DNA of 64,000 bases, taken from a virus. The stretch covers positions 1 through 64,000 of IMG/VR virus record IMGVR_UViG_3300009171_000001. One strand, written 5' to 3'. This document shows, piece after piece, positions 37,217 through 54,931 of this stretch. The notes beneath the pieces are model-generated. The model searched no databases and was not told the DNA's origin. It saw only the letters and a list, made by a program, of their open reading frames with translations. The first letter of the stretch is position 1. Each line of letters begins with the position of its first letter. The position numbers were made by a program, and so were the translations under genes.

Positions 37217-37768
37217 ATGGCAAAGGTAATGAAAGTAGAAAAGAGTAAGGCTGTGGCTTTGTTTGTGGCGATGGGCTTCAAGACTGCCGGAAAGTGGGAT
37301 GCTGAAAAGCTGACCGAAAAGATTAACCTGATTGAGGATGCCCCAGAAAAGCCGCTGGAGGATGAGGCTTTGGATGGCCTTTTGGATGAAATCCTGGGGG
37401 CAGCGGGGGACATCGTGGTTGTGGACGACGAGGCCGAGGGTGACGAAGAGGAAGAGCCTGAGGCCGATGATGAGGATGAAAAGCCCAAAAAGGGCAAAAA
37501 GGACAAAAAGGCAAAGGCAACCAAAAAGCCTGTGAAGAAGAACCTGAACCGAATCCACGCCGTCACGGACATTTTGAGAAAGCTGAAGAAGAGTGGTGCT
37601 ACAGCTGAGGACATCATCAAAGCAGCGGATGATGCCTATGTTGCAGATGGTGGCAACAGCAATCTGAAAGAAGCCGGATACAGCACTCACAGGGTCATTC
37701 AGGTAATGGAACGGCTTGGGATGGTGTCTGTGGAAGATGGTAAAGTCCGTCCGGTCAATCCTGTCTAA
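37217..37768 (+). CDS. Hypothetical protein with acidic and Lys-rich linker and HTH-like C-terminus
   Basis: 183 aa; RBS AAAGGA; promoter-like motif at 37157. Confidence 0.7.
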   Translation: MAKVMKVEKSKAVALFVAMGFKTAGKWDAEKLTEKINLIEDAPEKPLEDEALDGLLDEILGAAGDIVVVDDEAEGDEEEEPEADDEDEKPKKGKKDKKAKATKKPVKKNLNRIHAVTDILRKLKKSGATAEDIIKAADDAYVADGGNSNLKEAGYSTHRVIQVMERLGMVSVEDGKVRPVNPV

Positions 37769-37785: not shown

Positions 37786-38844
37786 TTGATGAAACGATAC
37801 CAAAGTGCAATTGGGGTAAGGGGTGATTGTTTATATTGCCCCTTGCCTTTGTCTATTGATACCTATTGGAATTGTGAACCTGATTGTTATCATTGTTATA
37901 GCCGCCGCCTTAATCGGATATGGGGGATGGATTTGCGGCCTGCTGACCCTGATGCTATCGCCCACAAATTACATAATGGATTGAAATGCAAAAATCCACG
38001 TAGTAGTTTGGCTTGGGCTTTATATCATAAGAAAACCTTGCGGGTGGGAAATCGTACAGACCCATATCAACCAGCTGAATTGAAACATCAAGTTACTCAT
38101 CAGGTATTAAATATCTTGATTGATTTGAAATGGACGTTTGTTATTCAAACGCGATTTACAAATAATATGTCTAATGATGAAGAGGCCATACTCAAAGCAA
38201 AGGATAAACAACTCATTACTTTGCTGCCCATTATTAGTCCAGGGGGGGAGTGGGATAGGACTGTTTTGGAAAAAGGGGCAACACCATCAATTCATAGCCG
38301 ATTACAAATCATCCGTCGATATATCAAAAAAGGTGTGCCTGTAGGTGTGGGGGGTGAACCTTTCATTCCTGGTTTGCATACGCCTAAAATGTTTGAAGAT
38401 ACTTTGAAGTCATTAAAATCAGTAGGGGTAAAAAGTTATAATACATATAATTTGCATTTCAACGACCATGTAGCCAAACAACTGGTTGGTATTGGATTAG
38501 ATATTGAAAGGATTTGGCATTATAATCAGGACAAACAATGGCGTCCAATTTTGCATAGGTTGTGCGAAATGGCTGATAGGCTGGGGATAGTATTGGGTTG
38601 CCCGGACTTTGTCAACGTACCGTACAGTTATACAACAAAATCTAACACTTGCTGCGGTATATCGGTAACAAACCCCAGCCGATTTAACACAGACACTTGG
38701 CGAAGGTTGTTGATGGATGGGAAAAAACCAGGATGGGTGTTGAAAAAGACGTGGGAGGGGATTGGGAATAAGGAGATGGGATGGAAAATCTTGTTTGGCA
38801 AACCGTGTGAATTTTATACGATGAAAGATGCAGGGATTATATGA
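37786..38844 (+). CDS. Radical SAM protein (SPL-like)
   Basis: CEPDCYHC CxxxCxxC motif; TDPYQP.E. Confidence 0.9.
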   Translation: MMKRYQSAIGVRGDCLYCPLPLSIDTYWNCEPDCYHCYSRRLNRIWGMDLRPADPDAIAHKLHNGLKCKNPRSSLAWALYHKKTLRVGNRTDPYQPAELKHQVTHQVLNILIDLKWTFVIQTRFTNNMSNDEEAILKAKDKQLITLLPIISPGGEWDRTVLEKGATPSIHSRLQIIRRYIKKGVPVGVGGEPFIPGLHTPKMFEDTLKSLKSVGVKSYNTYNLHFNDHVAKQLVGIGLDIERIWHYNQDKQWRPILHRLCEMADRLGIVLGCPDFVNVPYSYTTKSNTCCGISVTNPSRFNTDTWRRLLMDGKKPGWVLKKTWEGIGNKEMGWKILFGKPCEFYTMKDAGII

Positions 38845-39560
38845 AAAGAAGAAAAGACCGGATATTACCAAAAGATAAATGGAAATTTGATGATGCTGTT
38901 GCTAATTGTTTTGATAATATGTTGGAACGTAGCATACCTCAATATGAAGTAATGAGGAAGGCGGTTGTTGATATTGCTTGTGAATTTCAATCGGATAATA
39001 CTTGCATTATGGATTTGGGAACGTCTTTGGGGGGGAGTTTATCTCCTCTGATAGAAAAGTTTGGAAATAGAAATCATTATGTAGGGATGGAAATGTCTAT
39101 TCCCATGATTGAAAAAGCGAATCGAAGATTTGAAAAAGAGGTAAAAGAGGGGTATGTAATAATAAAAGAACATGATTTAAGAAAAGGGGTGCCCCAATCC
39201 CCCACGTGCATTGCTATGTCTATATTGACAATTCAATTTACACCAATAGAATATCGTCCTCATATCATTAGTTCTGTTTTTGAAACACTAATATCTGGTG
39301 GGGTTTTCATTTTGGTAGAGAAGATATTGGGTCAGACAAGTCATATAGATAAGTTGATGACCAAATTGTACTATAATATGAAAGGCAAGGCTGGGTATTC
39401 TCAAAAACAGATAGAGAGAAAACGATTGAGTTTAGAAGGAGTGTTGGTGCCTGTGACGGCTAAGTGGAATGAAGAGCTTTTGTGTTGGGCTGGATTCAAA
39501 GAGGTGGAATGTTTCTGGCGATGGATGAACTTTGCGGGATGGGTGGGGATAAAAAGATGA
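38841..39560 (+). CDS. cmoA: CmoA-like carboxy-SAM synthase / SAM-dependent transferase
   Basis: W.FD..VA..FD.M+.RS+P.Y, DLG.S.G, T+QF, L.EK, KR.SLE.V and NF motifs of CmoA. Confidence 0.78.
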   Translation: MKRRKDRILPKDKWKFDDAVANCFDNMLERSIPQYEVMRKAVVDIACEFQSDNTCIMDLGTSLGGSLSPLIEKFGNRNHYVGMEMSIPMIEKANRRFEKEVKEGYVIIKEHDLRKGVPQSPTCIAMSILTIQFTPIEYRPHIISSVFETLISGGVFILVEKILGQTSHIDKLMTKLYYNMKGKAGYSQKQIERKRLSLEGVLVPVTAKWNEELLCWAGFKEVECFWRWMNFAGWVGIKR

Positions 39561-40300
39561 AAGATTTATGGATATGTCAAAAATGGAAGATGAAAAATGT
39601 GGGGAGCACTTTGTCGGAAATTATCGAAGTGGGAGGAAAGAGGACTGTCTGGCATGAACATAGAATTAAACACCTAAGTGAAAATGTATGGTGTTTATAT
39701 CAAGCACTTCAAATAGTGGGGGGTGTAAAATCAGTGATAGACCTTTGTGCTGGAATAGGATTGTGGGCGAAGGTGATAGAACAGGAAATAAAACCTTTGC
39801 GATTGACTTTGATAGATTTGGATTATGCTTGTTGTGAAAGATTGAAAACACAATTTCCAACAGCTGATGTTCTCTCAGATAATTATTGGAACATATCTTG
39901 TAGAGGTTATGATTTAGTTTGTATGGATGTTACTATTAGCACGGCTCATAGGATATTTGATAATAATCCTGATATTCCATTAATGAAAGTGTTGGGGGAA
40001 GGAGTTACTTGGATCATAATATCGGATTGTGCTGCCCCTAAATTACACCTCAACAAAAAATCTTATGAAAATGTACTTAAAGGTGAAATTGATTCTTATG
40101 AAGACTACATAAGATTATATTCAAAAAGACTTTTGAACAAAACAGGAAAATCCATTCATACCGTTTTTCTAAGTGGCGGTTCTAAACGTCCACATTCAAG
40201 TTACTTTTTAATCAAAAATGATGCGAGAGATTTTGAGATTAAAAGGGTAGAGAATGTTCCTGAATCTTCTTTTTATCGGGGGGATTTATTGAATGATTAA
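39557..40300 (+). CDS. Class I SAM-dependent methyltransferase-fold protein
   Basis: VIDLCAGIG motif I, LIDLD motif II. Confidence 0.7.
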   Translation: MKDLWICQKWKMKNVGSTLSEIIEVGGKRTVWHEHRIKHLSENVWCLYQALQIVGGVKSVIDLCAGIGLWAKVIEQEIKPLRLTLIDLDYACCERLKTQFPTADVLSDNYWNISCRGYDLVCMDVTISTAHRIFDNNPDIPLMKVLGEGVTWIIISDCAAPKLHLNKKSYENVLKGEIDSYEDYIRLYSKRLLNKTGKSIHTVFLSGGSKRPHSSYFLIKNDARDFEIKRVENVPESSFYRGDLLND

Positions 40301-41144
40301 AATTGATACTCCCGTAGAAAGTCACTATATAAAGGGGAGGGAGATTTGGGTGAAAAGAGAAGATTTATGCACCCAAATCCCAGGCCCACCTTTTAGCAAA
40401 TGTCGGGGATTGTATCCTCATATGAAAAGGTTGCGGGATGAAGAGAAAGTACATATAGTGGGTTATGTTGAAACACCCATATCAATGGCTGGATGGGGTG
40501 TGGCTTGGTGTGCTAAGGCTTTGGGAATGACTGCGGTAATATATGAACCCCAATATAAACATGGCGCACCAAAAATGTTGATTAAGCATAAACAACATTG
40601 GGAAAAGTTTGGAGTGATAATCGAACATATCCCAGCAGGCATGACTTGTATTAATCAACACATAGCCAAAAAACATTTGTTGAAAAAATACGGTGCCAAA
40701 ACACATTTGTTACCCATAGGGATACCTTCAATAGAAACGGTGGAAGAAACAGCTGCCGAATGGCGGAGGACAATATACCAATATGGTAAATTTGAAAATG
40801 TTATCGTTCCTGTAGGCAGTGGTACCATTTGTGCAGGTGTATTAAAGGGGATGTTACCTGAAGATGGGTGTTTGACTGGAGTAATGGTTTATTCTAAAAA
40901 CATTCCAAAAAAATTCAAATCCATTTGTAATAAAGCGGGCAAACAAAATCTTCCCTTGTTAGAAAACAATCTTAATTTTAGATTGATTGATCCTGGATGG
41001 AGTTATACAGAAATGGCAACCATACAAGCACCATTCCCTTGCCACCGATATTATGATTTGAAAGGCTGGCAGTGGTTATTAGAAATGTTGCCTACAATGA
41101 AAGATAGAGTGTTGTTTTGGAATATAGGCTCAGAAGGTCAATAA
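40293..41144 (+). CDS. PLP-dependent enzyme (ACC deaminase/D-cysteine desulfhydrase fold II)
   Basis: IWVKREDL......SK.R, VP.GSGT..AG, YD.K and LFWN.G motifs. Confidence 0.85.
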   Translation: MIKIDTPVESHYIKGREIWVKREDLCTQIPGPPFSKCRGLYPHMKRLRDEEKVHIVGYVETPISMAGWGVAWCAKALGMTAVIYEPQYKHGAPKMLIKHKQHWEKFGVIIEHIPAGMTCINQHIAKKHLLKKYGAKTHLLPIGIPSIETVEETAAEWRRTIYQYGKFENVIVPVGSGTICAGVLKGMLPEDGCLTGVMVYSKNIPKKFKSICNKAGKQNLPLLENNLNFRLIDPGWSYTEMATIQAPFPCHRYYDLKGWQWLLEMLPTMKDRVLFWNIGSEGQ

Positions 41145-41187
41145 GCAATAATATCTTATACGGTTAAGTTAATAGGATTTTATTTTA

Positions 41188-42615
41188 ATGAATTACTACG
41201 AGTTGAGAAAAGCTGTGGCTCAAGTCATCCCGCATAGTCACCGGATTACGGGGGAGAGGATGAGAGTACGGGCGGTGAAAGAAAAGGGACGCAAAAGTGG
41301 ATATGCTGAGTACAAATTGTCTCAACAGGAGTGGGTAAAACAAGAGCGGTTGTTAAATGTAGATGAAGTGAGTAGTTTTATTGAAGTTAGTTGCAGGGCA
41401 CAGGCTTGCCCAATGCCATTAAACATCGACATTTGGGATGGATTGATTTGTCCCTACAATTGTTGTTATTGTTTTGCTAATAGTTTTAGGGCATCTTTGT
41501 ACACAGCATTTTTTGATAATAGCAAAACTATGGGTATGCGGCATTGTAACACTGCTAAGTACAAAAAGGATTTGGACAAACTATTCCTTCAATATCGTGG
41601 TAAAAATTCTCATGACATAAACAATCCTGTTGCTAAGGCTATAGCTATAGGAATACCTATACGATTTGGCATCCGGTTTGAGGATTTTTTGAAGCAAGAG
41701 GAGAAAAGCGGGGTGAGTTTGGAAATGTTGAAATACCTTGCTAAGTGCAAATATCCTTTGATGGTCAATACCAAGTCTGTATTGATAGGTCATGAAGAAT
41801 ATGTTCATGCATTAAGTCATAACAAAGGCAAAACGGCAGTACATATCACTTTAATAAGTAGTAACAATGGTTTGTTGAAGGCTTTAGAACCTGGGGCACC
41901 ATCCTATGAGGATAGAATAGGGGCTATGAAAAATTTGGTGTCTGCTGGGGTGAGGGTAGTAGCCAGGATTGAACCGTGGATGCCTTTTGTGAATGACGAC
42001 CCTGACCATACCGAAAAATATATGCAAGATTTGAAAGATATTGGGGTAAAACATTTGACCTTTGATACATACTCCTACAGCGCCAACAATCCAGGTATTG
42101 CCCAGGCTTTCCGAAATCTCAATATGGATTGGGATAGGATTTTCTCCATGGGTTGTGAAAGTCAAGGTTTTGGCAGCATCCTGTTAGGTTACTATATGAA
42201 ATTGTGGCAAGACAAAGGATTTCATTGTTCAACTTTCGATATGGGTAATATGCCCACTAATTCTCAATCTATCTGTTGTGAAGTGGGGGATTTGTTTGAA
42301 ACTACGGGTGGCTTTAATTACGGTTGTACTGTGATGGCTGCCAGATATATCATTGGTAAAAAAGGTTCATCGGTAAGTTGGGGGGAATTTTGTGCCCATG
42401 TAAATAAACATGGTGGATTTTTGTCCAAAGCCTTAAAAGATGAAGTATTATTGTTATGGGACTTTTTGGGTAAAGATGCTTATAGTCATGGTTGGAGTGC
42501 GGGGATGGAAATAGATGGGTGTGATGAAAATGGACATATGGTGTGGAAATATAATTCCGATTTAGATTTTCGTCAAGATTTGTTAAAAGGAGTAGGCATT
42601 GAGTTACAAAGCTAA
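41188..42615 (+). CDS. Radical SAM protein (SPL-like), paralogue of 37786
   Basis: CPYNCCYC motif; CPMPLNID; LEPGAPS...R; C-terminal CC. Confidence 0.9.
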   Translation: MNYYELRKAVAQVIPHSHRITGERMRVRAVKEKGRKSGYAEYKLSQQEWVKQERLLNVDEVSSFIEVSCRAQACPMPLNIDIWDGLICPYNCCYCFANSFRASLYTAFFDNSKTMGMRHCNTAKYKKDLDKLFLQYRGKNSHDINNPVAKAIAIGIPIRFGIRFEDFLKQEEKSGVSLEMLKYLAKCKYPLMVNTKSVLIGHEEYVHALSHNKGKTAVHITLISSNNGLLKALEPGAPSYEDRIGAMKNLVSAGVRVVARIEPWMPFVNDDPDHTEKYMQDLKDIGVKHLTFDTYSYSANNPGIAQAFRNLNMDWDRIFSMGCESQGFGSILLGYYMKLWQDKGFHCSTFDMGNMPTNSQSICCEVGDLFETTGGFNYGCTVMAARYIIGKKGSSVSWGEFCAHVNKHGGFLSKALKDEVLLLWDFLGKDAYSHGWSAGMEIDGCDENGHMVWKYNSDLDFRQDLLKGVGIELQS

Positions 42616-43309
42616 TAAACGCATTGAAGATATATTTGCTCATGCGGTAGCATTACAACAAAATGGACGTATGCGCAATACTATATATTGTAGAAAAAAT
42701 TATATTTATATCTTGAATCAAGATGATACAATTTTGCTACGATTTTGTTTAAGGCTCAGTGAGGTAGTATTTGCTCATCCAGTATCTTTTTATGCTAATG
42801 ATTATGATAGCAACAAGTTTTATGAAGAGGATGGAAAAATCCATTTTGTAATTGAAAATGAATTTCATCAAAGAATCAAACAATGTGGGACACCTAAGCG
42901 AAATCCCTTGCAGGTTCATAAATTATTTCAACAAATAAAACCGTTGATGGAAAATGCTGTGGATATAGGGGAATCTCTATTAGGATTTCTTGATGAGGAT
43001 TTGACCCATATAGAATTTTCTGCTTCAAAAGGCAAACTCAAGATTGTCCAACGTAATATCTATACAGGTTCAATAATAACCATCCAGGAAAAAACAGGGC
43101 AAGAACAAGGATTGGTACAAATATCCCCCCATCTAAAAGATTTTGTCCCAATAGCTATTCGTACCAAAGATTTTTTAGCCTTGTTTAGTTTTGCCAATAT
43201 TGTATCCTTTTGTTTTGGTGATCATTATATATGGGTAGAAAATAAAGACCATAAAATACCTTTTATGGGTATAATAGGATTATGTAGATATAATGAGTTG
43301 CAAGGATGA
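42599..43309 (+). CDS. Hypothetical protein in the modification cluster
   Basis: 236-aa ORF overlapping both neighbours. Confidence 0.6.
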   Translation: MSYKANKRIEDIFAHAVALQQNGRMRNTIYCRKNYIYILNQDDTILLRFCLRLSEVVFAHPVSFYANDYDSNKFYEEDGKIHFVIENEFHQRIKQCGTPKRNPLQVHKLFQQIKPLMENAVDIGESLLGFLDEDLTHIEFSASKGKLKIVQRNIYTGSIITIQEKTGQEQGLVQISPHLKDFVPIAIRTKDFLALFSFANIVSFCFGDHYIWVENKDHKIPFMGIIGLCRYNELQG

Positions 43310-44181
43310 AAGATTTGTTGGGACAACCCATTTCTCTTAAATTGCGTGAGAGGTATGTTGAACCACCTTTCACAGTTTTATCCACTTACTCTTCCTTTTG
43401 GATAAATCGACGGCGACAATGGTTGCGTTTGGGCATTCAAAGTGAATTGGGACGGACAAGTTCTACATTTAGTGGAGGATTGCCTAATTTCATAACCAAA
43501 ACCAAAAAATCAAAAAGTTTGAAACAACGTACTTCTATTTTTGATCCAGTTTTGTGTGAATTAATATATCAGTGGTTTTGTTTTGAAAATGGAAAAGTGT
43601 TGGACCCATTTGCGGGTGGAAGTGTGCGGGGGATTGTAGCGGGATATTTGGGTTATCCCTATGTTGGGATAGAATTGAGTGAACCCCAAGTAAAAGCTAA
43701 TGAGAAACAGGCCCATCATATTCTATCATCAAACATAAAAACATATCCACAATGGATAGTGGGGGATGCTGAAACCGTTTTGCCCACATTAAAAGAAAAA
43801 GTATCACTAATTTTTTCCTGTCCACCTTATATGAATTTGGAAAAGTTTAGTAATCATCCAGAGGATTTGAGTAATATGGATGATGAGCATTTTATTGCTA
43901 AATATAACCGGATTATACAATATGCCTGCAAATTGTTAAAACCAAATGGTTTTGCTTGTTTTGTGGTGGGGGATTTGCGAGATAAAAAAGGATATTTCAA
44001 AGATTTCCCCATGATAACTAAGCAGGCTTTTTATGGGTGTGGTTTGAAATTGTACAATGAAGCTATTTTGTTAAACAGTTTGGGTAGTGCTGCTATACGG
44101 GCTAAGTGTCAGTTTGATAGAGGGAGAAAGTTGGTGAAGGTACATCAAACAGTTCTGGTTTTCAAAAAGGTAAAGGATTGA
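43306..44181 (+). CDS. DNA amino-methyltransferase (N6A/N4C-type)
   Basis: SIFDPVLCE, VLDPFAGGSVRG and SCPPY motifs. Confidence 0.85.
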   Translation: MKDLLGQPISLKLRERYVEPPFTVLSTYSSFWINRRRQWLRLGIQSELGRTSSTFSGGLPNFITKTKKSKSLKQRTSIFDPVLCELIYQWFCFENGKVLDPFAGGSVRGIVAGYLGYPYVGIELSEPQVKANEKQAHHILSSNIKTYPQWIVGDAETVLPTLKEKVSLIFSCPPYMNLEKFSNHPEDLSNMDDEHFIAKYNRIIQYACKLLKPNGFACFVVGDLRDKKGYFKDFPMITKQAFYGCGLKLYNEAILLNSLGSAAIRAKCQFDRGRKLVKVHQTVLVFKKVKD

Positions 44182-44183
44182 TT

Positions 44184-44339
44184 ATGGGTGGCAAAAGTCG
44201 CAAATCAGGCGGTATTAGTAAAACACTGGTTCAACGTCTATCCCGTGAACATCGACAAAATCAAAAGGTGAAAAAAGATGAACGAATATCTACAAGCAGT
44301 GGAAAAAGCCGGTCAAAACCCCAACTTTTGGATGAGTGA
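44184..44339 (+). CDS. 51-aa basic peptide (not in the ORF track)
   Basis: MGGKSRKSGGISKTLVQRLSREHRQNQKVKK...; RBS AAGGA; overlaps the next gene. Confidence 0.4.
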   Translation: MGGKSRKSGGISKTLVQRLSREHRQNQKVKKDERISTSSGKSRSKPQLLDE

Positions 44340-45054
44340 AGAATACATCCAAAAAGCTAATTTGGTTTGGGTATATGAAAATGAACTTTTAGGATATAAA
44401 ATGAATCCAAAAGATGATGAATGGTTTTTTCCACCTATTGATAAAGATAGACAATTTGATTTGAAAAGGAACATTTTCTGCGGATTTGTTTTATCAGATT
44501 CAGATTGTGAGGAAGGTTCATTTTTGGATTTTCAATTTTTCTACAATCCCCCAGCATTTCTATCAATGCAAGGTAGTCATTGGGATGTGTTTCGTAAAAA
44601 CATTCGCAAAATTCCCAAACGTACCAAAGGTGAATTAATATATAAACCAATTTGTGGAAAAAGTTATTCTCAAGAAATATCCCAACTGATAATTGAGTGG
44701 TCTGACAGAATGGGAGAAGTGCAAGACCATATAGTTTGTATCAAATATGCTTTGAGTGGATGCAATCGTTGGGGTTTGTTTTTGGAAAACCAATTGATAG
44801 GATTAAATGTTTGGGATGAAAATTTTAAGTATATCAATTTTCGTTATTGTATAGATAATGGGATGCCTTTTCTACAAGAATATCTCCGTTATCGTTTTTA
44901 TCTTCGTATTATGCATATTCAAAAGTGGGTAAATGATGGTGGTGTTTTAGATAATGCTGGATTAAAACGGTTCAAAGAAAAACTGAACCCTATAACTATA
45001 GGAAAAGTTTGTCAATATAAAGGAAAGGATATGATTTATGCAAGTAGTACGTGA
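44278..45054 (+). CDS. GNAT-fold / DUF2156-like (aminoacyl-transferase-like) protein
   Basis: L...G..W..FRKN and WVNDGG.L...GL..FK.KLNP motifs resemble the MprF C-terminal/DUF2156 family. Confidence 0.6.
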   Translation: MNEYLQAVEKAGQNPNFWMSEEYIQKANLVWVYENELLGYKMNPKDDEWFFPPIDKDRQFDLKRNIFCGFVLSDSDCEEGSFLDFQFFYNPPAFLSMQGSHWDVFRKNIRKIPKRTKGELIYKPICGKSYSQEISQLIIEWSDRMGEVQDHIVCIKYALSGCNRWGLFLENQLIGLNVWDENFKYINFRYCIDNGMPFLQEYLRYRFYLRIMHIQKWVNDGGVLDNAGLKRFKEKLNPITIGKVCQYKGKDMIYASST

Positions 45055-46060
45055 ACAATTAAACAAAGAATTGAAAGCTGTTATGGCCGGATTATCCCCA
45101 CAAGAAACAATTGAACAAAGTGATTGTTTTGTTTTTCAAGATGGTAAGGTGATAACATTTAACGATGAGATTGCTTGTCATTCACCTTGTTGCTTACCCA
45201 TCACAGGGGCCATAAAAGCTACCAAGTTGTTGGGGATGATAGAACAATGGCCGGAAGATAATATCGAATTTGAAGTGGAAAAGGACAAACTCAAATTCCA
45301 AGGGAGAAATCGGCATGGTTATTTTGTTATGCAAAAACAAATTACTTTGCCTATTAAGGATATTGAAGTGGCGGGTAAATGGAATAAACTGCCTGAAGAT
45401 TTTCTAACAGCCGTATCTCTAATAGAAAAGAGCGCCAGTCATGATGAAACCAAGTTGCAATTTACCTGTTTGCATTTATCCAGCCAATGGATAGAATCCA
45501 GTGATGGTTTTCAAGCTGGACGATATTCTATGAAGTTGCCTTTTTGTAAATCCCTTTTACTTCATAAAAAAATAGTCAGATGGTTAGGTGAAATAAATGC
45601 CAATCAAATGAATGAAACCTTACATTGGATTCATTTTCGCAACAGTGAAGAAAAGGATATGATAATCAGTTGTCGCAAACGGGACCAAGGTCAAAATTAT
45701 CCCAGTGATGCATTGACGGATATATTCAAAACAAAAGGTACACCTATAAAACTACCCAAAAACTTGAAAAATCTGACAAACCGTCTTAAAGTATTTTTGG
45801 ATGAGGCGAATGTAATTCAATCATCTTTGATTATTCAATTGAACAAAAACCGCATATATATTACAGGTAGTGGAACGTATGGTGCTCAAACGGAGAGAGC
45901 TAAAATTTGTTATGATGGAAAGCCCTTCAAATTTAATATCAATCCTGAATTATTACAGGAATTTAGTACACAACATGATGAATGTATGATTTCTGACAAA
46001 AATATAAAAATACGAAAAGGGAATTATCAATTTGTATCTTGTTTGTGGCTGACTGAATGA
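45038..46060 (+). CDS. DNA sliding clamp (Pol III beta-like)
   Basis: 340 aa; S.DE++...C+H, SDGF, YP and F.INP motifs of beta clamps. Confidence 0.7.
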   Translation: MQVVREQLNKELKAVMAGLSPQETIEQSDCFVFQDGKVITFNDEIACHSPCCLPITGAIKATKLLGMIEQWPEDNIEFEVEKDKLKFQGRNRHGYFVMQKQITLPIKDIEVAGKWNKLPEDFLTAVSLIEKSASHDETKLQFTCLHLSSQWIESSDGFQAGRYSMKLPFCKSLLLHKKIVRWLGEINANQMNETLHWIHFRNSEEKDMIISCRKRDQGQNYPSDALTDIFKTKGTPIKLPKNLKNLTNRLKVFLDEANVIQSSLIIQLNKNRIYITGSGTYGAQTERAKICYDGKPFKFNINPELLQEFSTQHDECMISDKNIKIRKGNYQFVSCLWLTE

Positions 46061-47274
46061 TGCACGGTTTTCTTCTCAATACTAATACAGATAACCGAAT
46101 AGGTTTGGCTCATAATCCACAATGTGGTAGTTGTGGTTTGGCCCGCAAGTGCAAATCCCCTAAGATGAAATATACTGGTAAGGGGGAGAGGAAAATACTC
46201 ATTGTGGGGGAGGCTCCTGGGGTGGAAGAAGATAAAGTCAATGAACAATTTGTGGGTAAGGCTGGCAAACGATTGAAGCAAGAGTTGAAAAGGCAGGGTG
46301 TAGATTTATTTAGGGATTGTTGGAAAACCAACGCCATACGTTGCCGCCCACCAGAAAACAAAAAGCCCGATAACAAGCAAATTGCCTATTGTCGGCCAGC
46401 TTTGTTTTCCGAAATAGAACAACTCAAGCCTATTTCTATCTTGTTATTTGGTAATGTGGCGGCTAAGTCTGTGCTTGGTCATTTGTGGGATAATAGTGAA
46501 GGTTATGAAATGTCCACTTGGACAGATTGGTTGATACCTAATCGCAAACCCAATAGTTGGATTAGTGTTCACTATCATCCATCGTATTTAGAGCGACAGG
46601 GGGATGGTTTGTTGGATTTATTGTTTCAGCGGCATTTGAAACGGGCGTTGAAAAAGACAGAACGCCCGTGGGATAAAATCCCTAATTATGAAAATGATAT
46701 TGATATATTATATACACCCAAAACAATTATCCCTTGCATTCAGGGATTGATAAATTGGGGGGAACCAATTGCTTTTGATTATGAAACCAATTGTCTCAAA
46801 CCAGAATATGAGGGGGCAGAAATTGTTAGTTGTTCTATTTGTTGGGGGGAAGATGGGGAAGATAAGGTAATAGCCTTCCCCTGGATGAAAGAAATCCTAA
46901 AAGCAATGGATTTGTTGCTCAAAAGTCCTGTCCCAAAAATAGCCAGCAATATGAAATTTGAGGAGCGGTGGACAAAATATGTATTTGGACATCCTGTAAA
47001 GAATTGGGCGTGGGATACAATGCTGGCTGCCCATACTTTGAATAATAATGGCGGTGTAACTGGTTTGAAATTCCAAGCATTTACCCGTTTGGGTCAACCC
47101 CCATATGATAAACACATTGAATCTTATTTGAAACCTGCCCGCAAGCAATACTTGAATAGAATACGAGAAATACCATTGAAGGATTTGCTCTTGTATAATG
47201 GGATGGATTCATTATGTGAGTACCTTGTAATGCAAAAACAAAAGAAAATCGTAATGAAAGGACACAATCCTTGA
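46057..47274 (+). CDS. Family-4 uracil-DNA glycosylase fused to a 3'-5' exonuclease (N-terminal half of the split DNA polymerase)
   Basis: C..C.L, VGEAPG..ED, FVG.AG, CRPP.N, YHPS; Exo I FDYET, Exo II N.KFE, Exo III YN..D. Confidence 0.88.
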   Translation: MMHGFLLNTNTDNRIGLAHNPQCGSCGLARKCKSPKMKYTGKGERKILIVGEAPGVEEDKVNEQFVGKAGKRLKQELKRQGVDLFRDCWKTNAIRCRPPENKKPDNKQIAYCRPALFSEIEQLKPISILLFGNVAAKSVLGHLWDNSEGYEMSTWTDWLIPNRKPNSWISVHYHPSYLERQGDGLLDLLFQRHLKRALKKTERPWDKIPNYENDIDILYTPKTIIPCIQGLINWGEPIAFDYETNCLKPEYEGAEIVSCSICWGEDGEDKVIAFPWMKEILKAMDLLLKSPVPKIASNMKFEERWTKYVFGHPVKNWAWDTMLAAHTLNNNGGVTGLKFQAFTRLGQPPYDKHIESYLKPARKQYLNRIREIPLKDLLLYNGMDSLCEYLVMQKQKKIVMKGHNP

Positions 47275-47600
47275 AGGTATTAAAAGTTCAAGATTGTGAA
47301 GTGTTATTAGATGATTATGATTGGTTACGATTATGTCGAATCAAATGGAAAATCCGAACACCCAAAGATGGGGCTAAGTATATTTGTTGTAACAAATGGG
47401 TTACTTTACAAGATGGTTGTAGGGCAAAAAAAACTATCTATCTACACCGAGCTATTTCTTGTCCGCCGTATGGATTAGATTTGCCACCTGATATTGAAGT
47501 ACATCATAAAAATAGTAATCCCTTGGATAATCAACAATGTAATTTGGAACGGTTAAATCGAGTTGCTCATGGTAAAATGACACGGAATAATCATCAATGA
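47271..47600 (+). CDS. HNH endonuclease
   Basis: YLHR.I...VHH.N.NPLDN...NL motif. Confidence 0.85.
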   Translation: MKVLKVQDCEVLLDDYDWLRLCRIKWKIRTPKDGAKYICCNKWVTLQDGCRAKKTIYLHRAISCPPYGLDLPPDIEVHHKNSNPLDNQQCNLERLNRVAHGKMTRNNHQ

Positions 47601-48982
47601 TAAAAGCCACCACACAAGATGCTTATAGATTGCTTCATGAAGGCTTATTAGTTATGGCTGAAATGGAGGCGAACGGAATCTGTGTAGATGTAGATTATAT
47701 AAAACGGACACAAAGAAAAATAGATGTTCGTATTAAGTATCTTACTGAACAGTTGCAAGAAGATAAGATATACAGGGTATGGAAAAAGACATTTGGTTGG
47801 AAGACGAAACTTGGCAGCCGAGCGCAATTAGCTAATGTATTGTTTGATAAAATGGGAATACGTTCGGAGAGACAAACTAATACACGACAGGCGGCTGATG
47901 CAGAGGCTTTAGAGGGATTGAACATACCATTTGTTAAACAATATCTACATATCGAAAAGTTGAAGAAAGCCCGCAGTACATATCTTGCTAATATCCTGTA
48001 TGAAACGGTAAATGGATTTATTCATCCCAATTTTAATTTGCATATTGCAAGAACTTTTAGAGGTTCATCTGACCATCCCAATTTTCAGAATATACCTATG
48101 CGGGATGTTCTCATCAAAAAGTTAATAAGACGTAGTTTTATTGCTCGGCCAGGACATTGCTTGGTTGACTTGGACTTCAAGGGCAGTGAAGTCAACGCAG
48201 CCAGTTGGTATCATAAAGACCCAGTGATGCTAAAATATATTGCTACTAATCCAGGCAAGATGCATTTTGATGCCGCTAAACAAATCTACAAGTTGCCCAG
48301 CAAATTGATGACGCCAGAAATACGATATTGTGCAAAGAATAAGTTTGTATTCCCTCAATTTTATGGTGATTGGTGGTTAAGTTGTGCACACAATTTATGG
48401 AATGCTATTGATAGGATGAAATTGAAAACCGCTAATGGCATCCCATTGAAAGAATGGCTTGAAAGAAAGGGCATAGTATGTTTGGGGACAGGTGATACAA
48501 AAAATATAAATCCTAAATCTTTTGAAGCCCATTTGAAGGAGGTAGAATATGACTTTTGGCATAATCGTTTTGCTGTATATCAAGAATGGAAAGAAGAGTG
48601 GTGGGAACAATATCAAGAACGTGGGTGGTTTCAAATGTTATCGGGTTTTAGGGTGTCGGGATATTTGAATCGTAAAGAGGTCATCAATTATCCAGTACAA
48701 GGTACAGCATTTCATGCTTTGCTTTGGTGTCTCATTCGTATTAGCCAATTGTTAAAAAAGTATAATATGAAAACAAAACTGGTTGGGCAAATCCATGATG
48801 ATGCTGTGAGTGATGTACCGGAAAAGGAGTTAAGCAATTATATAGAAATAGCATTAGATGTAATTATGGTACAGTTGAAAAAACATTGGCATTGGATAAT
48901 CACGCCCATGCAAGTGGAGATTGAGACAACTGAAATAGGTGGTTCGTGGTATGGTAAAAAGGAATACAAAATTACCAATTAA
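47597..48982 (+). CDS. polA: Family A DNA polymerase, polymerase domain
   Basis: SSD.PNFQNIP, DLDF...E (motif A), R..AK...F...YG (motif B), NYPVQGTA, QIHD (motif C). Confidence 0.93.
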   Translation: MIKATTQDAYRLLHEGLLVMAEMEANGICVDVDYIKRTQRKIDVRIKYLTEQLQEDKIYRVWKKTFGWKTKLGSRAQLANVLFDKMGIRSERQTNTRQAADAEALEGLNIPFVKQYLHIEKLKKARSTYLANILYETVNGFIHPNFNLHIARTFRGSSDHPNFQNIPMRDVLIKKLIRRSFIARPGHCLVDLDFKGSEVNAASWYHKDPVMLKYIATNPGKMHFDAAKQIYKLPSKLMTPEIRYCAKNKFVFPQFYGDWWLSCAHNLWNAIDRMKLKTANGIPLKEWLERKGIVCLGTGDTKNINPKSFEAHLKEVEYDFWHNRFAVYQEWKEEWWEQYQERGWFQMLSGFRVSGYLNRKEVINYPVQGTAFHALLWCLIRISQLLKKYNMKTKLVGQIHDDAVSDVPEKELSNYIEIALDVIMVQLKKHWHWIITPMQVEIETTEIGGSWYGKKEYKITN

Positions 48983-49616
48983 TCAAATCATCTGCGGTGA
49001 TTGTAGAGAAATCATCAAGGATTGGCCAGATGGATGTATTGACTTAATCCTTACTGACCCACCGTATGGTATTGATTATGCAAAGATTCAAGGGACAAGG
49101 CCCAATGAGAAAAAGAGAAAAGTGTTTGAAGGTGATAAAATTCCAATAGATATGACCTTTTTGTTTAATCGGCCCGAACCTAAAATCATTTTTGGTGCAA
49201 ACAACTTTTGGAAACAAATACCTACACGTGGTCGATGGTTATGTTGGGACAAAAGAACAAAAATAAGTGCTGATAAGACTCTGGGCTCGCCATTTGAATT
49301 AGCTTGGATAAATCGAGAACACGGTTATAATAGAATCTATCGTGTGATGCATGGAGGTGTTATTAATAATGACCAGTATTATGGCGAAAGAAAAAGATGG
49401 CATCCAACACAAAAGCCCATCAATTTAATGAGATTGATATTGGAAGATTTTAGCAAACCCAACGACATAATCCTTGACCCATTTTGTGGTAGTGGTACTA
49501 CCTGTATAGCCGCCGCCTTAATAGGCCGTCGATACATTGGTATTGATATTGATGAACAGTATTGTGAAATAAGTAGGAAAAGAATTAAACGAATAACAAG
49601 TGGGATGTTAATATGA
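48951..49616 (+). CDS. DNA N6-adenine/N4-cytosine methyltransferase (beta class)
   Basis: TDPPY, HPTQKP and LDPFCGSGTT motifs. Confidence 0.92.
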   Translation: MVKRNTKLPINQIICGDCREIIKDWPDGCIDLILTDPPYGIDYAKIQGTRPNEKKRKVFEGDKIPIDMTFLFNRPEPKIIFGANNFWKQIPTRGRWLCWDKRTKISADKTLGSPFELAWINREHGYNRIYRVMHGGVINNDQYYGERKRWHPTQKPINLMRLILEDFSKPNDIILDPFCGSGTTCIAAALIGRRYIGIDIDEQYCEISRKRIKRITSGMLI

Positions 49617-52847: not shown

Positions 52848-53894
52848 ATGAAAACTGAAGAAATAAAACGACGCTTGAAACATCGTAAAGAAAACAAAGA
52901 ATTGACTGCCGGTGATTTTGTAAGTACCGGCAGTTCAATGCTCAATCTTGCCTGTACAGACAACCCAAACAAAGGCTTTGCTAAGGGATATTACTACCTA
53001 TTAGTTGGCACAAGCCAATCGGGCAAAACCTTTTTATCGTTGACCTGTTTGGCAGAGGCTACACGTAATCCCTGTTTTCAGAATCATCAATTCATTTATG
53101 ATGATGTGGAACGGGGAGCTTTAATGGACATCGAAAAGTTTTTTGGCAAGGCGGTAAAAGAAAGGTTGAAGGTCATTCATTCTCATACTATAGAGGAGTT
53201 TTATTATCGGTTGGACAATCTTGCCAAAAAGGGCAAACCATTTATTTATATATTGGATTCTATGGATGGTTTGACCAGCCAGGCAGAGCTCAAGAAATTT
53301 GGTCAGCAAAAGAAAGCATATCGAGAGGAGCGTGAAGCACCTGGTAGTTATGGGGATGGCAAGGCAAAAATCAATAGTCAAAATTTGCGATGTGTCCTCA
53401 ATCCACTTCAAGAAACAGGTAGCATACTCATCATTATAAATCAAACACGGGACAAATTGACGGGTTTTGGGGGTAAGACACGGAGTGGGGGGAATGCCTT
53501 ACAATTCTATGCTTGTTTAGAAATATGGAGTGATGTTAAGAAACATATCACCAAAGTGTACAAAGGCAAACCACGGGCTCAGGGTGTATTGTGTACTTTG
53601 CGGGTGAAAAAGAACCGATTCAAAGGCAAAGACAGGATGATTGAAATACCCATCTATTATAGTTATGGTATAGATGATGTGGGTTCCTGCATAGATTATT
53701 TGGTGAGTGAAAAACATTGGAAAAAACGGGATGGGAGTATCATAGCCCCTGAATTTGATTTCAAAGGCAAACGTAATAGCCTCATTCAACATATAATCAA
53801 TAATAATATGGAAAAAGATTTGGGGGAGGTGGTGATGGATGCTTGGCAGGAAATAGAGAGGGCAATTGATATAAAAAGAAAACCAAGATATTGA
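52848..53894 (+). CDS. recA: RecA/UvsX-like recombinase
   Basis: STGS..L, G.SQSGKT, LDS, INQ.R, GG.AL.FYA and KN+ motifs. Confidence 0.9.
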   Translation: MKTEEIKRRLKHRKENKELTAGDFVSTGSSMLNLACTDNPNKGFAKGYYYLLVGTSQSGKTFLSLTCLAEATRNPCFQNHQFIYDDVERGALMDIEKFFGKAVKERLKVIHSHTIEEFYYRLDNLAKKGKPFIYILDSMDGLTSQAELKKFGQQKKAYREEREAPGSYGDGKAKINSQNLRCVLNPLQETGSILIIINQTRDKLTGFGGKTRSGGNALQFYACLEIWSDVKKHITKVYKGKPRAQGVLCTLRVKKNRFKGKDRMIEIPIYYSYGIDDVGSCIDYLVSEKHWKKRDGSIIAPEFDFKGKRNSLIQHIINNNMEKDLGEVVMDAWQEIERAIDIKRKPRY

Positions 53895-54921: not shown

Positions 54922-54931
54922 AAGGAAAAAG

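What the first reader, a model, noticed from the sequence alone, without database searches (positions are those of the whole stretch)
37786..45054. Unusual multi-enzyme cluster predicting an undescribed DNA hypermodification
Seen: radical SAM, CmoA-like, SAM-transferase, fold-II PLP enzyme, second radical SAM, unknown, amino-MTase and DUF2156/GNAT-like genes, tightly packed and running into the clamp and UDG-polymerase genes. Established: phage thymidine hypermodification uses radical SAM, PLP and acyltransferase tailoring enzymes. I see no dUMP hydroxymethylase, 5-hmU kinase or deazaguanine genes in this window. Inference: a different base chemistry, possibly involving carboxymethyl or aminoacyl groups.
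Basis: partly seen in the sequence, partly recalled or inferred. Interest (0 to 1): 0.8.

Follow-up and report, generated by a model that had tools for sequence, protein, structure and literature searches.

The report
Phage DNA-hypermodification module with carboxy-SAM add-on
An uncultured freshwater-sediment phage carries, inside its replication genes, an unstudied enzyme set that probably decorates its DNA bases without any known starting enzyme, and only this phage and two relatives add a carboxy-SAM synthase joined to a new methyltransferase-like enzyme.

Summary
Its "unknown" gene is a PCNA-like clamp, and a ninth 51-aa gene was missed. The stretch has three layers.

1. A core is shared by about 100 uncultured-phage contigs: two SPL-like radical SAM paralogues, a PCNA-like clamp, a GGKSRK peptide and a DUF2156-type transferase.
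2. A swappable cassette sits between the two radical SAM genes. Here it holds a PLP enzyme 38.8% identical to phage M6 gp52 decarboxylase and g3, a methyltransferase-fold protein. The g3 family has no Pfam model, spans 753 clusters, and also sits inside M6-type clusters.
3. Two insertions follow: CmoA, start-stop-coupled to g3, and a common ParB-type amino-methyltransferase.

The complete 73.8-kb genome lacks C5-MTase/CmoX, CmoB, a CmoY-type ligase, dUMP hydroxymethylase, ThyX, TET/JBP, TGT and QueC. BLAST finds no M6 kinase or aGPT-Pplase.

The CmoA-linked g3 subgroup alone replaces the family's D-S-A-C-[YF]-G motif with D-C-A-A-P-K.

Best reading (about 0.5): a post-replicative hypermodification from an amino-acid-derived side chain that is decarboxylated and, here, carboxymethylated. 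DNA as the target is unproven; a peptide-directed pathway is the main rival. This scan found the core earlier in other genomes. The CmoA-g3 link is new here.

The parts
37786..38844 (+). rS1: SPL-like radical SAM enzyme (352 aa), C-X3-C-X2-C motif. Core gene.
   Evidence: NCBIfam rSAM_PA0069 2.8e-18 and rSAM_Rv2578c 2.2e-13. Paralogue of rS2: 24% identity, E 6e-13. Forms its own clade of 51 sequences with support 1.0. Present in nearly all related loci.
38841..39560 (+). CmoA-like carboxy-SAM synthase (239 aa). An insertion, seen only here among the roughly 100 related contigs fetched.
   Evidence: TIGR00740 3.2e-40, below its curated cut-off. phrog_4752 1e-67. Full-length match to E. coli CmoA 4gek at 1e-23, with the equivalents of Arg199 and Glu164 conserved (residues from PMC3663124). 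No CmoA in loci L009-L148.
39557..40300 (+). g3: class I methyltransferase-fold protein (247 aa) from a family with no Pfam model. Its ATG overlaps the cmoA stop codon. Candidate carboxy-SAM-dependent transferase.
   Evidence: Fold: Foldseek E 5e-5, VIA Z up to 9.6; the model is weak at pLDDT 63. Family: 753 representative clusters. Members lie between rS1 and rS2, and also inside M6-type clusters. The D-C-A-A-P-K motif is unique to the three CmoA-linked members.
40293..41144 (+). Fold-type II PLP enzyme (283 aa), a homologue of phage M6 gp52 decarboxylase. Cassette gene.
   Evidence: 38.8% identity over the full length to M6 gp52, E 2e-44. The PLP lysine (F-S-K-x-R-G) and the C-terminal P-F-P-C / Y-D-L-K / F-W-N-I motifs are shared. 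gp52 function comes from PMC8989533. Present in about half of the related loci.
41188..42615 (+). rS2: SPL-like radical SAM enzyme (475 aa), C-X3-C-X2-C motif plus a C-terminal extension. Core gene.
   Evidence: NCBIfam rSAM_Rv2578c 5.9e-11. Same position and length as M6 gp53, but only 21% identity, pairwise E 0.002. Falls in a separate clade from gp53.
42599..43309 (+). g6: PCNA-like two-domain sliding-clamp protomer (236 aa). Core gene.
   Evidence: AlphaFold2 on 16 sequences: pLDDT 89, pTM 0.86. All 500 Foldseek matches counted have E <= 0.001; every match listed is a PCNA chain, best E 4.4e-10, TM 0.51-0.61. Always directly follows rS2. Absent where the radical SAM genes are absent: L119, L129, L130.
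43306..44181 (+). g7: amino-(N6/N4) DNA methyltransferase of the ParB-associated family (291 aa). Motif I F-A-G-G-S, motif IV S-C-P-P-Y. An insertion.
   Evidence: N6_N4_Mtase 1.4e-10, phrog_12517 1e-87. 35-55% identical relatives occur in Listeria, Enterococcus, Mycobacterium, Haloarcula and cyanobacterial viruses that lack the rest of the cluster. The C-P-P-Y motif is a feature of the whole family.
44184..44339 (+). Tiny ORF (51 aa). Invariant head M-G-G-K-S-R-K-x-G-x-x-S-x-x-L, a lysine-rich linker, and a hydrophobic-acidic end (Q-L-L-D-E). Overlaps the start of g8.
   Evidence: An A-A-G-G-A motif lies upstream of the ATG. The same head appears in 67 of 80 loci exactly, and in at least 8 more with one or two extra N-terminal residues. 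It is absent in L119, L129 and L130, which lack the radical SAM genes and g6.
44278..45054 (+). g8: DUF2156 / LPG_synthase_C-like double-GNAT protein (258 aa). Candidate aminoacyl-tRNA-dependent transferase.
   Evidence: Atlas feature score 0.98 to viral clusters, a minority of whose members carry PF09924. Structure TM 0.81 to LPG_synthase_C and GNAT clusters. 5 of 16 family members hit PF09924, best 1.3e-6; the window's own protein does not. The family profile hits 2hqy at E 0.0027.
45038..47274 (+). Context: replicative clamp (phrog_947) and the UDG plus 3'-5' exonuclease part of a split family A polymerase.
   Evidence: The order DnaB - g0 - rS1 ... rS2 - g6 - peptide - g8 - clamp - PolA - clamp loader is conserved.

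Best explanation
The stretch is a composite locus that most likely makes a post-replicative DNA hypermodification.

Shown by tool results:
- The core is two SPL-like radical SAM paralogues, a private PCNA-like clamp, a GGKSRK-headed peptide and a DUF2156-type transferase. It is conserved as a block in the replication operon of a large group of uncultured phages.
- Between rS1 and rS2 lies a swappable cassette. In different phages it holds a PLP enzyme, g3-like proteins, an aldo-keto reductase or methyltransferases.
- Here the cassette holds a homologue of the M6 gp52 decarboxylase and g3. The g3 family also sits inside classical M6-type thymidine hypermodification clusters.
- Only here, and by inference in two relatives, does a CmoA gene sit start-stop-coupled in front of g3.

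Inferred:
- The radical SAM pair, working on DNA held by the clamp, builds or rearranges an amino-acid-derived side chain directly on a canonical base. This would replace the hydroxymethylase, kinase and aGPT-Pplase front end of known pathways.
- The PLP enzyme decarboxylates that side chain to a primary amine.
- g3 alkylates the side chain, or the base itself. Sister phages would use SAM and add a methyl group. This phage makes carboxy-SAM with its own CmoA and would add a carboxymethyl group. The subgroup-specific lysine in D-C-A-A-P-K would play the part that Arg350 plays in CmoX.
- The DUF2156-type enzyme supplies or adds an aminoacyl group from charged tRNA.
- g7 is an ordinary, independent DNA methyltransferase.
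For: - PLP enzyme: 38.8% identical over its full length to M6 gp52. gp52 decarboxylates an amino acid borne on DNA (PMC8989533).
- rS1 and rS2: belong to the SPL/gp53 branch of radical SAM enzymes. The two characterised members named in PMC8989533, SPL and gp53, act on DNA.
- Core block: found in 23 of 60 PLP-anchored loci and in most of 80 g8-anchored loci, always in the replication operon.
- Co-variation: the PCNA-like g6 and the peptide are present or absent together with the radical SAM genes.
- Cassette content varies from phage to phage, as expected for tailoring enzymes. The aldo-keto reductase hits PF00248 at 1e-42.
- g3 family: 28 ORFs in these loci, including ones embedded in aGPT-Pplase / kinase / gp53 / PLP clusters.
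- CmoA: key residues conserved. Phage CmoA is a proven carboxy-SAM source for DNA modification (PMC12783734).
- No other known carboxy-SAM user, and no known front-end enzyme, anywhere in the complete genome.
- CmoA-g3 pairing recurs. g3 relatives of 73% and 48% identity sit on contigs of 17,351 and 3,768 bp. Two CmoA relatives from the same sources sit on contigs of exactly those lengths.
- D-C-A-A-P-K occurs only in those three g3 proteins, out of 152 family proteins checked (the best 149 new representatives plus the three themselves).
Against: - No result shows DNA as the substrate, and no cultured phage carries rS1, rS2 or g8. No modified base has therefore ever been measured for this module.
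- rS2 is not an orthologue of gp53.
- All related loci share one phage backbone, so part of the co-occurrence is common descent.
- g8 persists in three loci that lack the radical SAM genes.
- The PLP decarboxylase needs a free alpha-amino acid, and the enzyme that would install one is not identified.
- cmoA could be a chance insertion into a hot spot that also collects methyltransferases and homing endonucleases.
- The g3 model is weak (pLDDT 63), so the place of Lys162 in the active site is unverified.
- The same-contig inference for the CmoA-g3 relatives rests on equal contig lengths only.
Confidence: 0.5

Rival explanations
1. A peptide-directed (RiPP- or pearlin-like) pathway. The GGKSRK peptide is the substrate or scaffold. 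The DUF2156-type enzyme aminoacylates it from charged tRNA. The radical SAM, PLP, g3 and CmoA enzymes then tailor the added residue. The product is a modified peptide or a released small molecule, possibly docked on the PCNA-like clamp, and DNA bases are untouched.
For: - A tiny ORF with a 16-residue invariant head overlaps the start of the DUF2156-type gene in at least 75 of 80 loci.
- Radical SAM enzymes next to a small conserved peptide are the usual signature of peptide-modifying pathways (established knowledge).
- FemX/MprF-type enzymes acylate amines such as lysine side chains (established knowledge; PMC13219725).
- The peptide co-varies with the radical SAM genes and g6.
Against: - The nearest characterised relatives of the PLP enzyme and of the radical SAM branch work on DNA.
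- g3-like proteins also sit in M6-type clusters, which have no such peptide.
- A PCNA-like clamp and a fixed place in the replication operon point to DNA.
- Phage CmoA is so far known only in DNA modification.
Confidence: 0.2
2. CmoA plus g3 is a self-contained two-gene system that carboxymethylates a canonical DNA base directly. It would be a functional analogue of CmoA-CmoX built on another methyltransferase fold. It merely landed in the insertion hot spot between rS1 and the PLP gene, and has no chemical link to the radical SAM module.
For: - cmoA and g3 are start-stop-coupled.
- The pair seems to recur on two other contigs.
- The slot also holds unrelated methyltransferases and homing endonucleases in sister phages.
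- The genome has no CmoX or CmoB.
Against: In every locus fetched here where a g3-family ORF was found, it lies inside a hypermodification cluster, either between rS1 and rS2 or beside the gp52-like PLP gene of an M6-type cluster. This argues that the family works on the appended side chain or an intermediate. These loci were, however, fetched by anchoring on cluster genes, and the contexts of the other 753 family clusters are unknown.
Confidence: 0.15
3. The two SPL-like radical SAM enzymes and the PCNA-like clamp are a DNA repair device, for example lyases for UV or radical lesions. CmoA, g3, the PLP enzyme and g7 would then be unrelated passengers, and no hypermodified base is made.
For: - The family models that match are named 'DNA repair photolyase' types, and SPL itself is a repair enzyme.
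- About a third of related loci have rS1 and rS2 with no PLP gene.
Against: - Two paralogues are always kept together, with a variable enzyme cassette between them. That cassette includes a gp52-like decarboxylase, an aldo-keto reductase and g3-like proteins shared with M6-type clusters. This is the pattern of a biosynthetic pathway, not of a repair lyase.
Confidence: 0.07
4. The carboxy-SAM user is g7, or the second N6_N4 methyltransferase at 48939-49616. The product would be N6-carboxymethyladenine or N4-carboxymethylcytosine.
For: - Two amino-methyltransferases lie within 10 kb of cmoA.
- The authors of PMC12783734 say that such enzymes are conceivable but that they found none.
- In two cyanophages, g7-like enzymes are fused or adjacent to gp52-like PLP domains, so some members of the family may do more than methylate.
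Against: - g7 relatives with the same motifs are common in phages that lack cmoA.
- g7 is four genes away from cmoA, whereas g3 is start-stop-coupled to it.
- No residue specific to the window's g7 was found.
Confidence: 0.05

Closest known systems
5-(2-aminoethyl)-deoxyuridine pathway of Pseudomonas phage M6 (Yuavirus): dUMP hydroxymethylase, 5-hmdU DNA kinase gp54, glycine:DNA transferase gp51, radical SAM isomerase gp53, PLP decarboxylase gp52 (PMC8989533)
   Same: A gp52 homologue at 38.8% identity, directly followed by an SPL-like radical SAM enzyme of the same length. The genes sit within the DNA replication genes. g3-family proteins occur in both kinds of cluster.
   Different: The whole genome has no hydroxymethylase, kinase or aGPT-Pplase. 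There are two radical SAM paralogues, which form clades separate from gp53. There are also a private PCNA-like clamp, a GGKSRK peptide, a DUF2156-type transferase and CmoA.
CmoA-CmoX-CmoY system of Synechococcus phage S-B43, which makes 5-carboxymethylcytosine and its glycine amide (PMC12783734)
   Same: A phage-encoded CmoA homologue with the carboxylate-binding arginine, placed beside a SAM-fold transferase in a DNA-modification context.
   Different: No C5-methyltransferase homologue (CmoX) and no asparagine-synthetase-like ligase (CmoY). The coupled transferase belongs to an unrelated family with no Pfam model. The neighbours are radical SAM and PLP enzymes.
Mom of phage Mu: a GNAT enzyme that moves glycine from Gly-tRNA to N6 of adenine in DNA (PMC13219725)
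   Same: It sets the precedent that an acyltransferase-fold enzyme can use charged tRNA to modify DNA. g8 has the double-GNAT fold of tRNA-dependent aminoacyl transferases.
   Different: g8 is of the DUF2156/MprF-C type, not a Mom homologue. Its donor and acceptor are unknown. Mom works alone, whereas g8 is part of a multi-enzyme block.
Spore photoproduct lyase and the PA0069/Rv2578c radical SAM family
   Same: The C-X3-C-X2-C radical SAM core. These are the best family matches for both rS1 and rS2.
   Different: The scores are far below the families' cut-offs (66 bits against 360). The genes are phage-borne paralogue pairs with a tailoring cassette between them, and rS2 has a long C-terminal extension.
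Bacterial CmoA-CmoB tRNA cmo5U pathway
   Same: CmoA chemistry: SAM plus prephenate gives carboxy-SAM.
   Different: No CmoB is present (PF08003 is absent). The setting is a phage replication operon.

Membership tests
CmoA carboxy-SAM synthase | Full-length similarity to the CmoA equivalog models | tested here: inconclusive
   TIGR00740 E 3.2e-40, but 138 bits against a cut-off of 193. Full-length match to E. coli CmoA at 1e-23. phrog_4752 1e-67. 46.9% identity at best to isolated-phage homologues.
CmoA carboxy-SAM synthase | The arginine that binds the carboxylate (E. coli Arg199) and the acidic residue Glu164 | tested here: met
   Both align to identical residues in the phmmer alignment with 4gek. 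Their roles come from PMC3663124. Asn132 is replaced by Ser.
CmoA carboxy-SAM synthase | Makes carboxy-SAM from SAM and prephenate | not testable with these tools
   Needs an enzyme assay.
CmoA-CmoX-CmoY DNA 5cxmC system | A C5-cytosine methyltransferase homologue (CmoX) with the S-P-P-C motif and Arg350 | tested here: not met
   PF00145 has no match at E <= 0.1 in the complete genome.
CmoA-CmoX-CmoY DNA 5cxmC system | An AMP-forming amide ligase of the asparagine-synthetase type (CmoY) | tested here: not met
   PF00733 has no match in the complete genome.
M6-type thymidine hypermodification cluster | A dUMP hydroxymethylase (thymidylate synthase homologue) or TET/JBP dioxygenase to supply 5-hmdU | tested here: not met
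   PF00303, PF02511 and PF12851 are absent. tblastn with the M6 enzyme gives nothing below E 0.6.
M6-type thymidine hypermodification cluster | A 5-hmdU DNA kinase and an aGPT-Pplase amino acid:DNA transferase | tested here: not met
   tblastn of M6 gp54 and gp51 against the whole genome gives no hit for gp51 and only a P-loop hit at E 0.73 for gp54. They are also absent from all core-module loci at 1e-4. Very remote homologues cannot be excluded by BLAST.
M6-type thymidine hypermodification cluster | A gp52-type fold-II PLP decarboxylase | tested here: met
   38.8% identity over 99% of the length. The lysine of F-S-K-x-R-G and the C-terminal motifs are shared. Decarboxylase activity is inferred, not tested.
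M6-type thymidine hypermodification cluster | A gp53-type radical SAM isomerase | tested here: inconclusive
   Same superfamily branch, position and length, but 21% identity. rS1 and rS2 form clades apart from the gp53 clade.
Radical SAM superfamily | C-X3-C-X2-C cluster-binding motif in a radical SAM core | tested here: met
   C-E-P-D-C-Y-H-C in rS1 and C-P-Y-N-C-C-Y-C in rS2. PF04055 8.2e-5 for rS2. NCBIfam matches for both.
DUF2156 / LPG_synthase_C (MprF C-terminal, aminoacyl-tRNA-dependent transferases) | Sequence or structure membership of PF09924 | tested here: inconclusive
   The window's own protein gets no Pfam hit. 5 of 16 orthologues hit PF09924, best 1.3e-6. The family profile hits 2hqy at E 0.0027. 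The Atlas model aligns at TM 0.81 to PF09924 and GNAT clusters.
DUF2156 / LPG_synthase_C (MprF C-terminal, aminoacyl-tRNA-dependent transferases) | Uses aminoacyl-tRNA as donor | not testable with these tools
   Needs biochemistry. The window encodes no tRNA.
PCNA-type sliding clamp | Two-domain clamp protomer fold | tested here: met
   pLDDT 89. PCNA chains fill the Foldseek list, best E 4.4e-10, TM 0.51-0.61 over about 260 alignment columns. There is no sequence-level match.
PCNA-type sliding clamp | Forms a closed ring on DNA and binds partner tails | not tested
   Ring formation was not modelled. For the single docking job see Tried and rejected.
N6/N4 amino DNA methyltransferase (ParB-associated) | Motif I (F-x-G-x-G) and motif IV ([DNS]-P-P-[YF] type) | tested here: met
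   D-P-F-A-G-G-S and S-C-P-P-Y, aligned with S-P-P-Y of 2zie. Both motifs are conserved in relatives from five viruses.

The most novel reading that the evidence does not exclude
This phage builds a hypermodified base from an unmodified base in DNA. Two radical SAM enzymes riding on a private PCNA-like clamp would start the chemistry. The amino-acid-derived side chain is then decarboxylated and capped with a carboxymethyl group by g3. That would make g3 the founder of a third natural class of carboxy-SAM-dependent transferases, after CmoB and CmoX, with a lysine (D-C-A-A-P-K) as the carboxylate reader. Charged tRNA would feed the pathway through a DUF2156-type enzyme.
Probability: 0.25. Interest if true: 0.9.

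Novelty: new variant of a known kind. Interest (0 to 1): 0.72.

Why it matters
Known thymidine hypermodifications all start from 5-hydroxymethyl-dU, made before or after replication, followed by a kinase and an aGPT-Pplase. The only known natural DNA use of carboxy-SAM goes through a C5-methyltransferase homologue. This locus has the downstream enzymes of the first system and the cofactor synthase of the second, but neither front end.

If the reading holds, three things follow:
- A radical route exists to functionalise canonical bases in DNA.
- There is a new carboxy-SAM-dependent transferase family with a simple, testable sequence switch: D-S-A-C-[YF]-G for methyl against D-C-A-A-P-K for carboxymethyl.
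- There may be a second class of tRNA-dependent DNA modifiers.

Such enzymes matter for phage resistance to restriction and CRISPR, for detecting modified DNA in metagenomes, and as tools to put carboxyl or amine handles on DNA. The g3 pair gives an unusually direct experiment: one protein, two cofactors.

Tried and rejected
I could not read the contigs of the two g3 relatives (P0002, P0003) or of the CmoA relatives. Their co-location rests on equal contig lengths.
- The search for related loci found nothing with rS2 alone in IMG/VR, or with the three-sequence g3 alignment in IMG/VR and in JGI metagenomes.
- blastn of the whole stretch against 50,697 phage records matched only 108 bp of cmoA. 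tblastn of rS1, rS2 and g8 against the same records found nothing.
- The cmoA neighbourhoods of Erwinia phage Alexandra and Alcaligenes phage Afa-NA1 share nothing else with this cluster.
- rS2 as an orthologue of M6 gp53: rejected by the tree.
- C-P-P-Y in g7 as a special feature: rejected, because it is family-wide.
- g3 as a C5-type or CmoB-type enzyme: no support. The structure matches are generic class I methyltransferases. Profile searches of the PDB reach only Mtf1 and KsgA-like N-terminal halves, at E 2.9e-4 and weaker.
- Complex prediction of g6 with the 51-aa peptide returned no verdict (score 0.00, controls not run). This is neither evidence for nor against docking.
- The promoter and terminator scan was at chance level. 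No tRNA genes were found.
- No RNA run holding this DNA is listed. The DNA holders are kept as contigs only, so no modification signal could be read.
- The literature search found no paper on this module or on carboxy-SAM with radical SAM enzymes in phages. The library lacks most subscription journals.

Full report
**What is there.** The window is the first 64,000 bases of a complete 73,759-bp virus record with a 123-bp direct terminal repeat. Structural genes lie on the minus strand up to about 22 kb. A long plus-strand replication operon follows.

The finding's stretch, 37786-45054, holds nine plus-strand genes that overlap or nearly touch:
- rS1, 37786-38844
- cmoA, 38841-39560
- g3, with its true ATG at 39557, ending at 40300
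- a fold-II PLP enzyme, 40293-41144
- rS2, 41188-42615
- g6, 42599-43309
- g7, 43306-44181
- a 51-aa ORF, 44184-44339
- g8, 44278-45054

Next come a clamp gene (45038-46060) and a split family A polymerase: UDG plus exonuclease at 46057-47274, an HNH gene at 47271-47600, and the polymerase domain at 47597-48982. Its "unknown" gene is a PCNA-like clamp protomer (pLDDT 89; every Foldseek match listed is a PCNA chain, best E 4.4e-10).

**Links to known systems.** The PLP enzyme is 38.8% identical over its whole length to gp52 of Pseudomonas phage M6. It shares the PLP lysine and the C-terminal motifs.

In M6, gp51 (aGPT-Pplase) and gp54 (kinase) put glycine on 5-hmdU in DNA. gp53, an SPL-like radical SAM enzyme, shifts the glycine from N-linked to C-linked. 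gp52 then decarboxylates it to 5-(2-aminoethyl)-dU (PMC8989533). In M6 the PLP gene is directly followed by the 480-aa radical SAM gene. Here it is followed by the 475-aa rS2.

rS2 and gp53 are only 21% identical. In a tree of 162 sequences, rS1 (51), rS2 (66) and gp53-like proteins (30) form separate clades, and rS1 and rS2 are sisters. rS2 is therefore a distant relative of gp53, not its orthologue.

The cmoA product matches E. coli CmoA over its full length. It keeps the arginine that binds the carboxylate of carboxy-SAM, and Glu164. A phage CmoA was recently shown to feed a C5-methyltransferase homologue, CmoX, which makes 5-carboxymethylcytosine; a ligase, CmoY, then amidates it. The authors state that they found no other kind of carboxymethyltransferase beside phage CmoA (PMC12783734).

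**What is missing.** The complete genome has no match at E <= 0.1 to any of these:
- C5-methyltransferase (PF00145)
- asparagine synthetase-type ligase (PF00733)
- thymidylate synthase/hydroxymethylase (PF00303)
- ThyX (PF02511)
- TET/JBP (PF12851)
- TGT/DpdA (PF01702)
- QueC (PF06508)
- CmoB (PF08003)

tblastn with the M6 kinase, aGPT-Pplase and hydroxymethylase finds nothing. Pfam scans of the other replication-operon genes found no nucleotide-metabolism enzyme. Any modification must therefore start from canonical bases, most likely after replication.

**The cluster is a composite.** I scanned IMG/VR with a PLP alignment and got 60 loci. These split in two:
- About 30 are M6-type, with an aGPT-Pplase, kinase, gp53 and hydroxymethylase.
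- 23 share the window's rS1, PLP, rS2, g6 and g8, and have none of the M6 front-end genes.

A second scan with a g8 alignment gave 80 loci. All have one backbone: DnaB, g0, rS1, a variable slot, rS2, g6, the tiny ORF, g8, clamp, polymerase, clamp loader.

The slot between rS1 and rS2 holds different genes in different phages:
- the PLP gene, in about half
- g3-like genes
- g3-like plus an aldo-keto reductase (PF00248, 1e-42)
- N6_N4 or MT-A70 methyltransferases
- a GIY-YIG endonuclease
- nothing

None of these loci has cmoA. g7-like genes appear in only a few of them, at other positions.

Three loci (L119, L129, L130) keep g8 and the clamp but lack rS1, rS2, g6 and the tiny ORF. So g6 and the peptide co-vary with the radical SAM pair, while g8 is less tightly bound to it.

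No cultured phage among 50,697 records has rS1, rS2 or g8.

**The tiny ORF.** At 44184-44339, a 51-aa ORF follows an A-A-G-G-A motif and overlaps the start of g8. Its first 16 residues (M-G-G-K-S-R-K-x-G-x-x-S-x-x-L-[IV]) are invariant in 67 of 80 loci. At least 8 more loci have the same head with one or two extra N-terminal residues. The rest of the peptide is a variable lysine-rich linker and a short hydrophobic-acidic end, such as L-L-D-E or L-F-D.

Earlier notes of this scan led me to look for it. I confirmed it independently here.

**g3 and CmoA: the part that is new here.** g3 has a class I methyltransferase fold but no specific family. The evidence is a weak FtsJ hit, Foldseek and VIA matches to many methyltransferases, and profile matches only to the SAM-binding half of Mtf1/KsgA-like proteins.

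A word-based search of 5.8 billion proteins found two relatives, of 73% and 48% identity. An iterated profile over the fetched loci found 28 more distant members, about 20% identical and of the same length. Most lie between rS1 and rS2. Four are embedded in M6-type clusters, beside the PLP gene. A profile search of 1.84 billion representatives gave 753 clusters at E <= 0.001, of which 97 are at E <= 1e-30.

The family is thus a regular but unnamed component of both kinds of hypermodification cluster. That argues it acts on the appended side chain or an intermediate, not on a bare base.

In the window, its ATG overlaps the cmoA stop codon. The two near relatives sit on contigs of 17,351 bp (Logan) and 3,768 bp (ENA). 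CmoA relatives of 70% and 57% identity sit on contigs of exactly those lengths from the same sources. The pairing therefore probably recurs, but this is an inference.

After the family's conserved aspartate, the common motif is D-S-A-C-[YF]-G. Only the three CmoA-linked proteins have D-C-A-A-P-K, out of 152 family proteins checked. A lysine or arginine placed to meet the carboxylate is what distinguishes CmoX (Arg350) and the engineered M.MpeI N374K from ordinary methyltransferases. Whether Lys162 does the same in g3 is untested, because the g3 model is weak (pLDDT 63).

**g7.** g7 belongs to a widespread family of ParB-associated amino-methyltransferases. Relatives in Listeria, Enterococcus, Mycobacterium, Haloarcula and other viruses lack the rest of the cluster. 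The odd S-C-P-P-Y motif is family-wide. I read g7 as an independent methyltransferase. A second N6_N4 methyltransferase lies at 48939-49616.

**Most likely mechanism (confidence 0.5).**
- Shown: the anatomy, the homologies, the co-variation and the absences described above.
- Inferred: the radical SAM pair acts on DNA threaded through the PCNA-like clamp. It installs or rearranges an amino-acid-derived group on a canonical base. The gp52-like enzyme decarboxylates it to an amine. g3 alkylates the product, with carboxymethyl from phage-made carboxy-SAM here and with methyl in sister phages. The DUF2156-type enzyme brings or adds an aminoacyl group from tRNA, for which Mu Mom is the only precedent on DNA (PMC13219725).
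- Weak points: the donor of the amino acid moiety is not identified. All related loci share ancestry. Nothing shows DNA as the target.

**Rivals.**
- A peptide-directed pathway on the GGKSRK peptide (0.2).
- An independent CmoA-g3 base carboxymethylation system that landed in a hot spot (0.15).
- A repair function for the SPL-like pair (0.07).
- g7 as the carboxy-SAM user (0.05).

**Habitat and earlier notes.** The DNA is held whole by one freshwater-sediment metagenome run (possibly its source). A second sediment sample holds identical fragments. A wetland sample holds fragments, some 95-99% alike and others more distant. The large terminase is about 39% identical to those of Cellulophaga and Croceibacter phages, which is only a faint hint at the host.

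This scan has already described the core module in at least eight other genomes, as a "kinase-free" module. Those are unchecked AI notes. My synteny, fold and peptide results agree with them and were obtained independently.

Noticed in passing
L005:9482-11971 (Pseudanabaena phage Pam4 gene 70) and L006:10242-11833 (Microcystis phage Mae-JY30): A g7-like ParB-type amino-methyltransferase is physically tied to a gp52-like PLP domain in two cyanophages. In Pam4 the PALP domain is inserted between the motif I half and the motif IV half of the methyltransferase, within one 829-aa protein. In Mae-JY30 a 236-aa PALP protein overlaps the stop of the methyltransferase gene. No radical SAM gene or cmoA lies nearby. 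This may be a separate, undescribed two-enzyme DNA modification, for example transfer of an amino-acid-like group from SAM followed by decarboxylation.
   Followed up: partly
window 46057-48982: The family A DNA polymerase is split. A UDG-like domain plus the 3'-5' exonuclease lies at 46057-47274, a 109-aa HNH endonuclease gene at 47271-47600, and the polymerase domain at 47597-48982. All three overlap by 4 bp.
   Followed up: no
L009:10861-13339: In the closest relative (a 77-kb contig), rS2 is read as two ORFs. The second begins with an intein splicing motif (PF14890, 9e-7), so the radical SAM gene there carries an intein. Earlier scan notes report split inteins at the first cluster cysteine in related genes.
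   Followed up: partly
window 48939-49616: A second N6_N4 DNA methyltransferase (225 aa, PF01555 4.5e-29) lies just after the polymerase. Relatives of it sit inside the rS2-g6 junction in sister phages L032, L035 and L066.
   Followed up: no
window 37217-37768: g0 is a 183-aa protein with an acidic stretch followed by a lysine-rich stretch (weak DUF6465 hit). It is conserved directly upstream of rS1 in many sister phages. Its function is unknown.
   Followed up: no
window 26271-28372: A MoxR-like AAA ATPase (328 aa) is followed by a DUF2201 metallopeptidase/VWA protein (372 aa; 1.3e-48 and 9.2e-30). This is an unusual pair for a phage early region.
   Followed up: no
window 57514-59516: An SbcC-like AAA_23 ATPase (340 aa) and a calcineurin-like phosphoesterase (327 aa, SbcD-like) form an overlapping pair. 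RecA-like, FEN-like and PDDEXK genes lie upstream at 52848-55824.
   Followed up: no
L100:6039-7732, L124, L132, L137 and others: In sister phages, the g3-like gene is regularly followed by an aldo-keto reductase of about 330 aa (PF00248, up to 1e-42) in place of the PLP enzyme. This implies a carbonyl intermediate in that variant of the pathway.
   Followed up: partly
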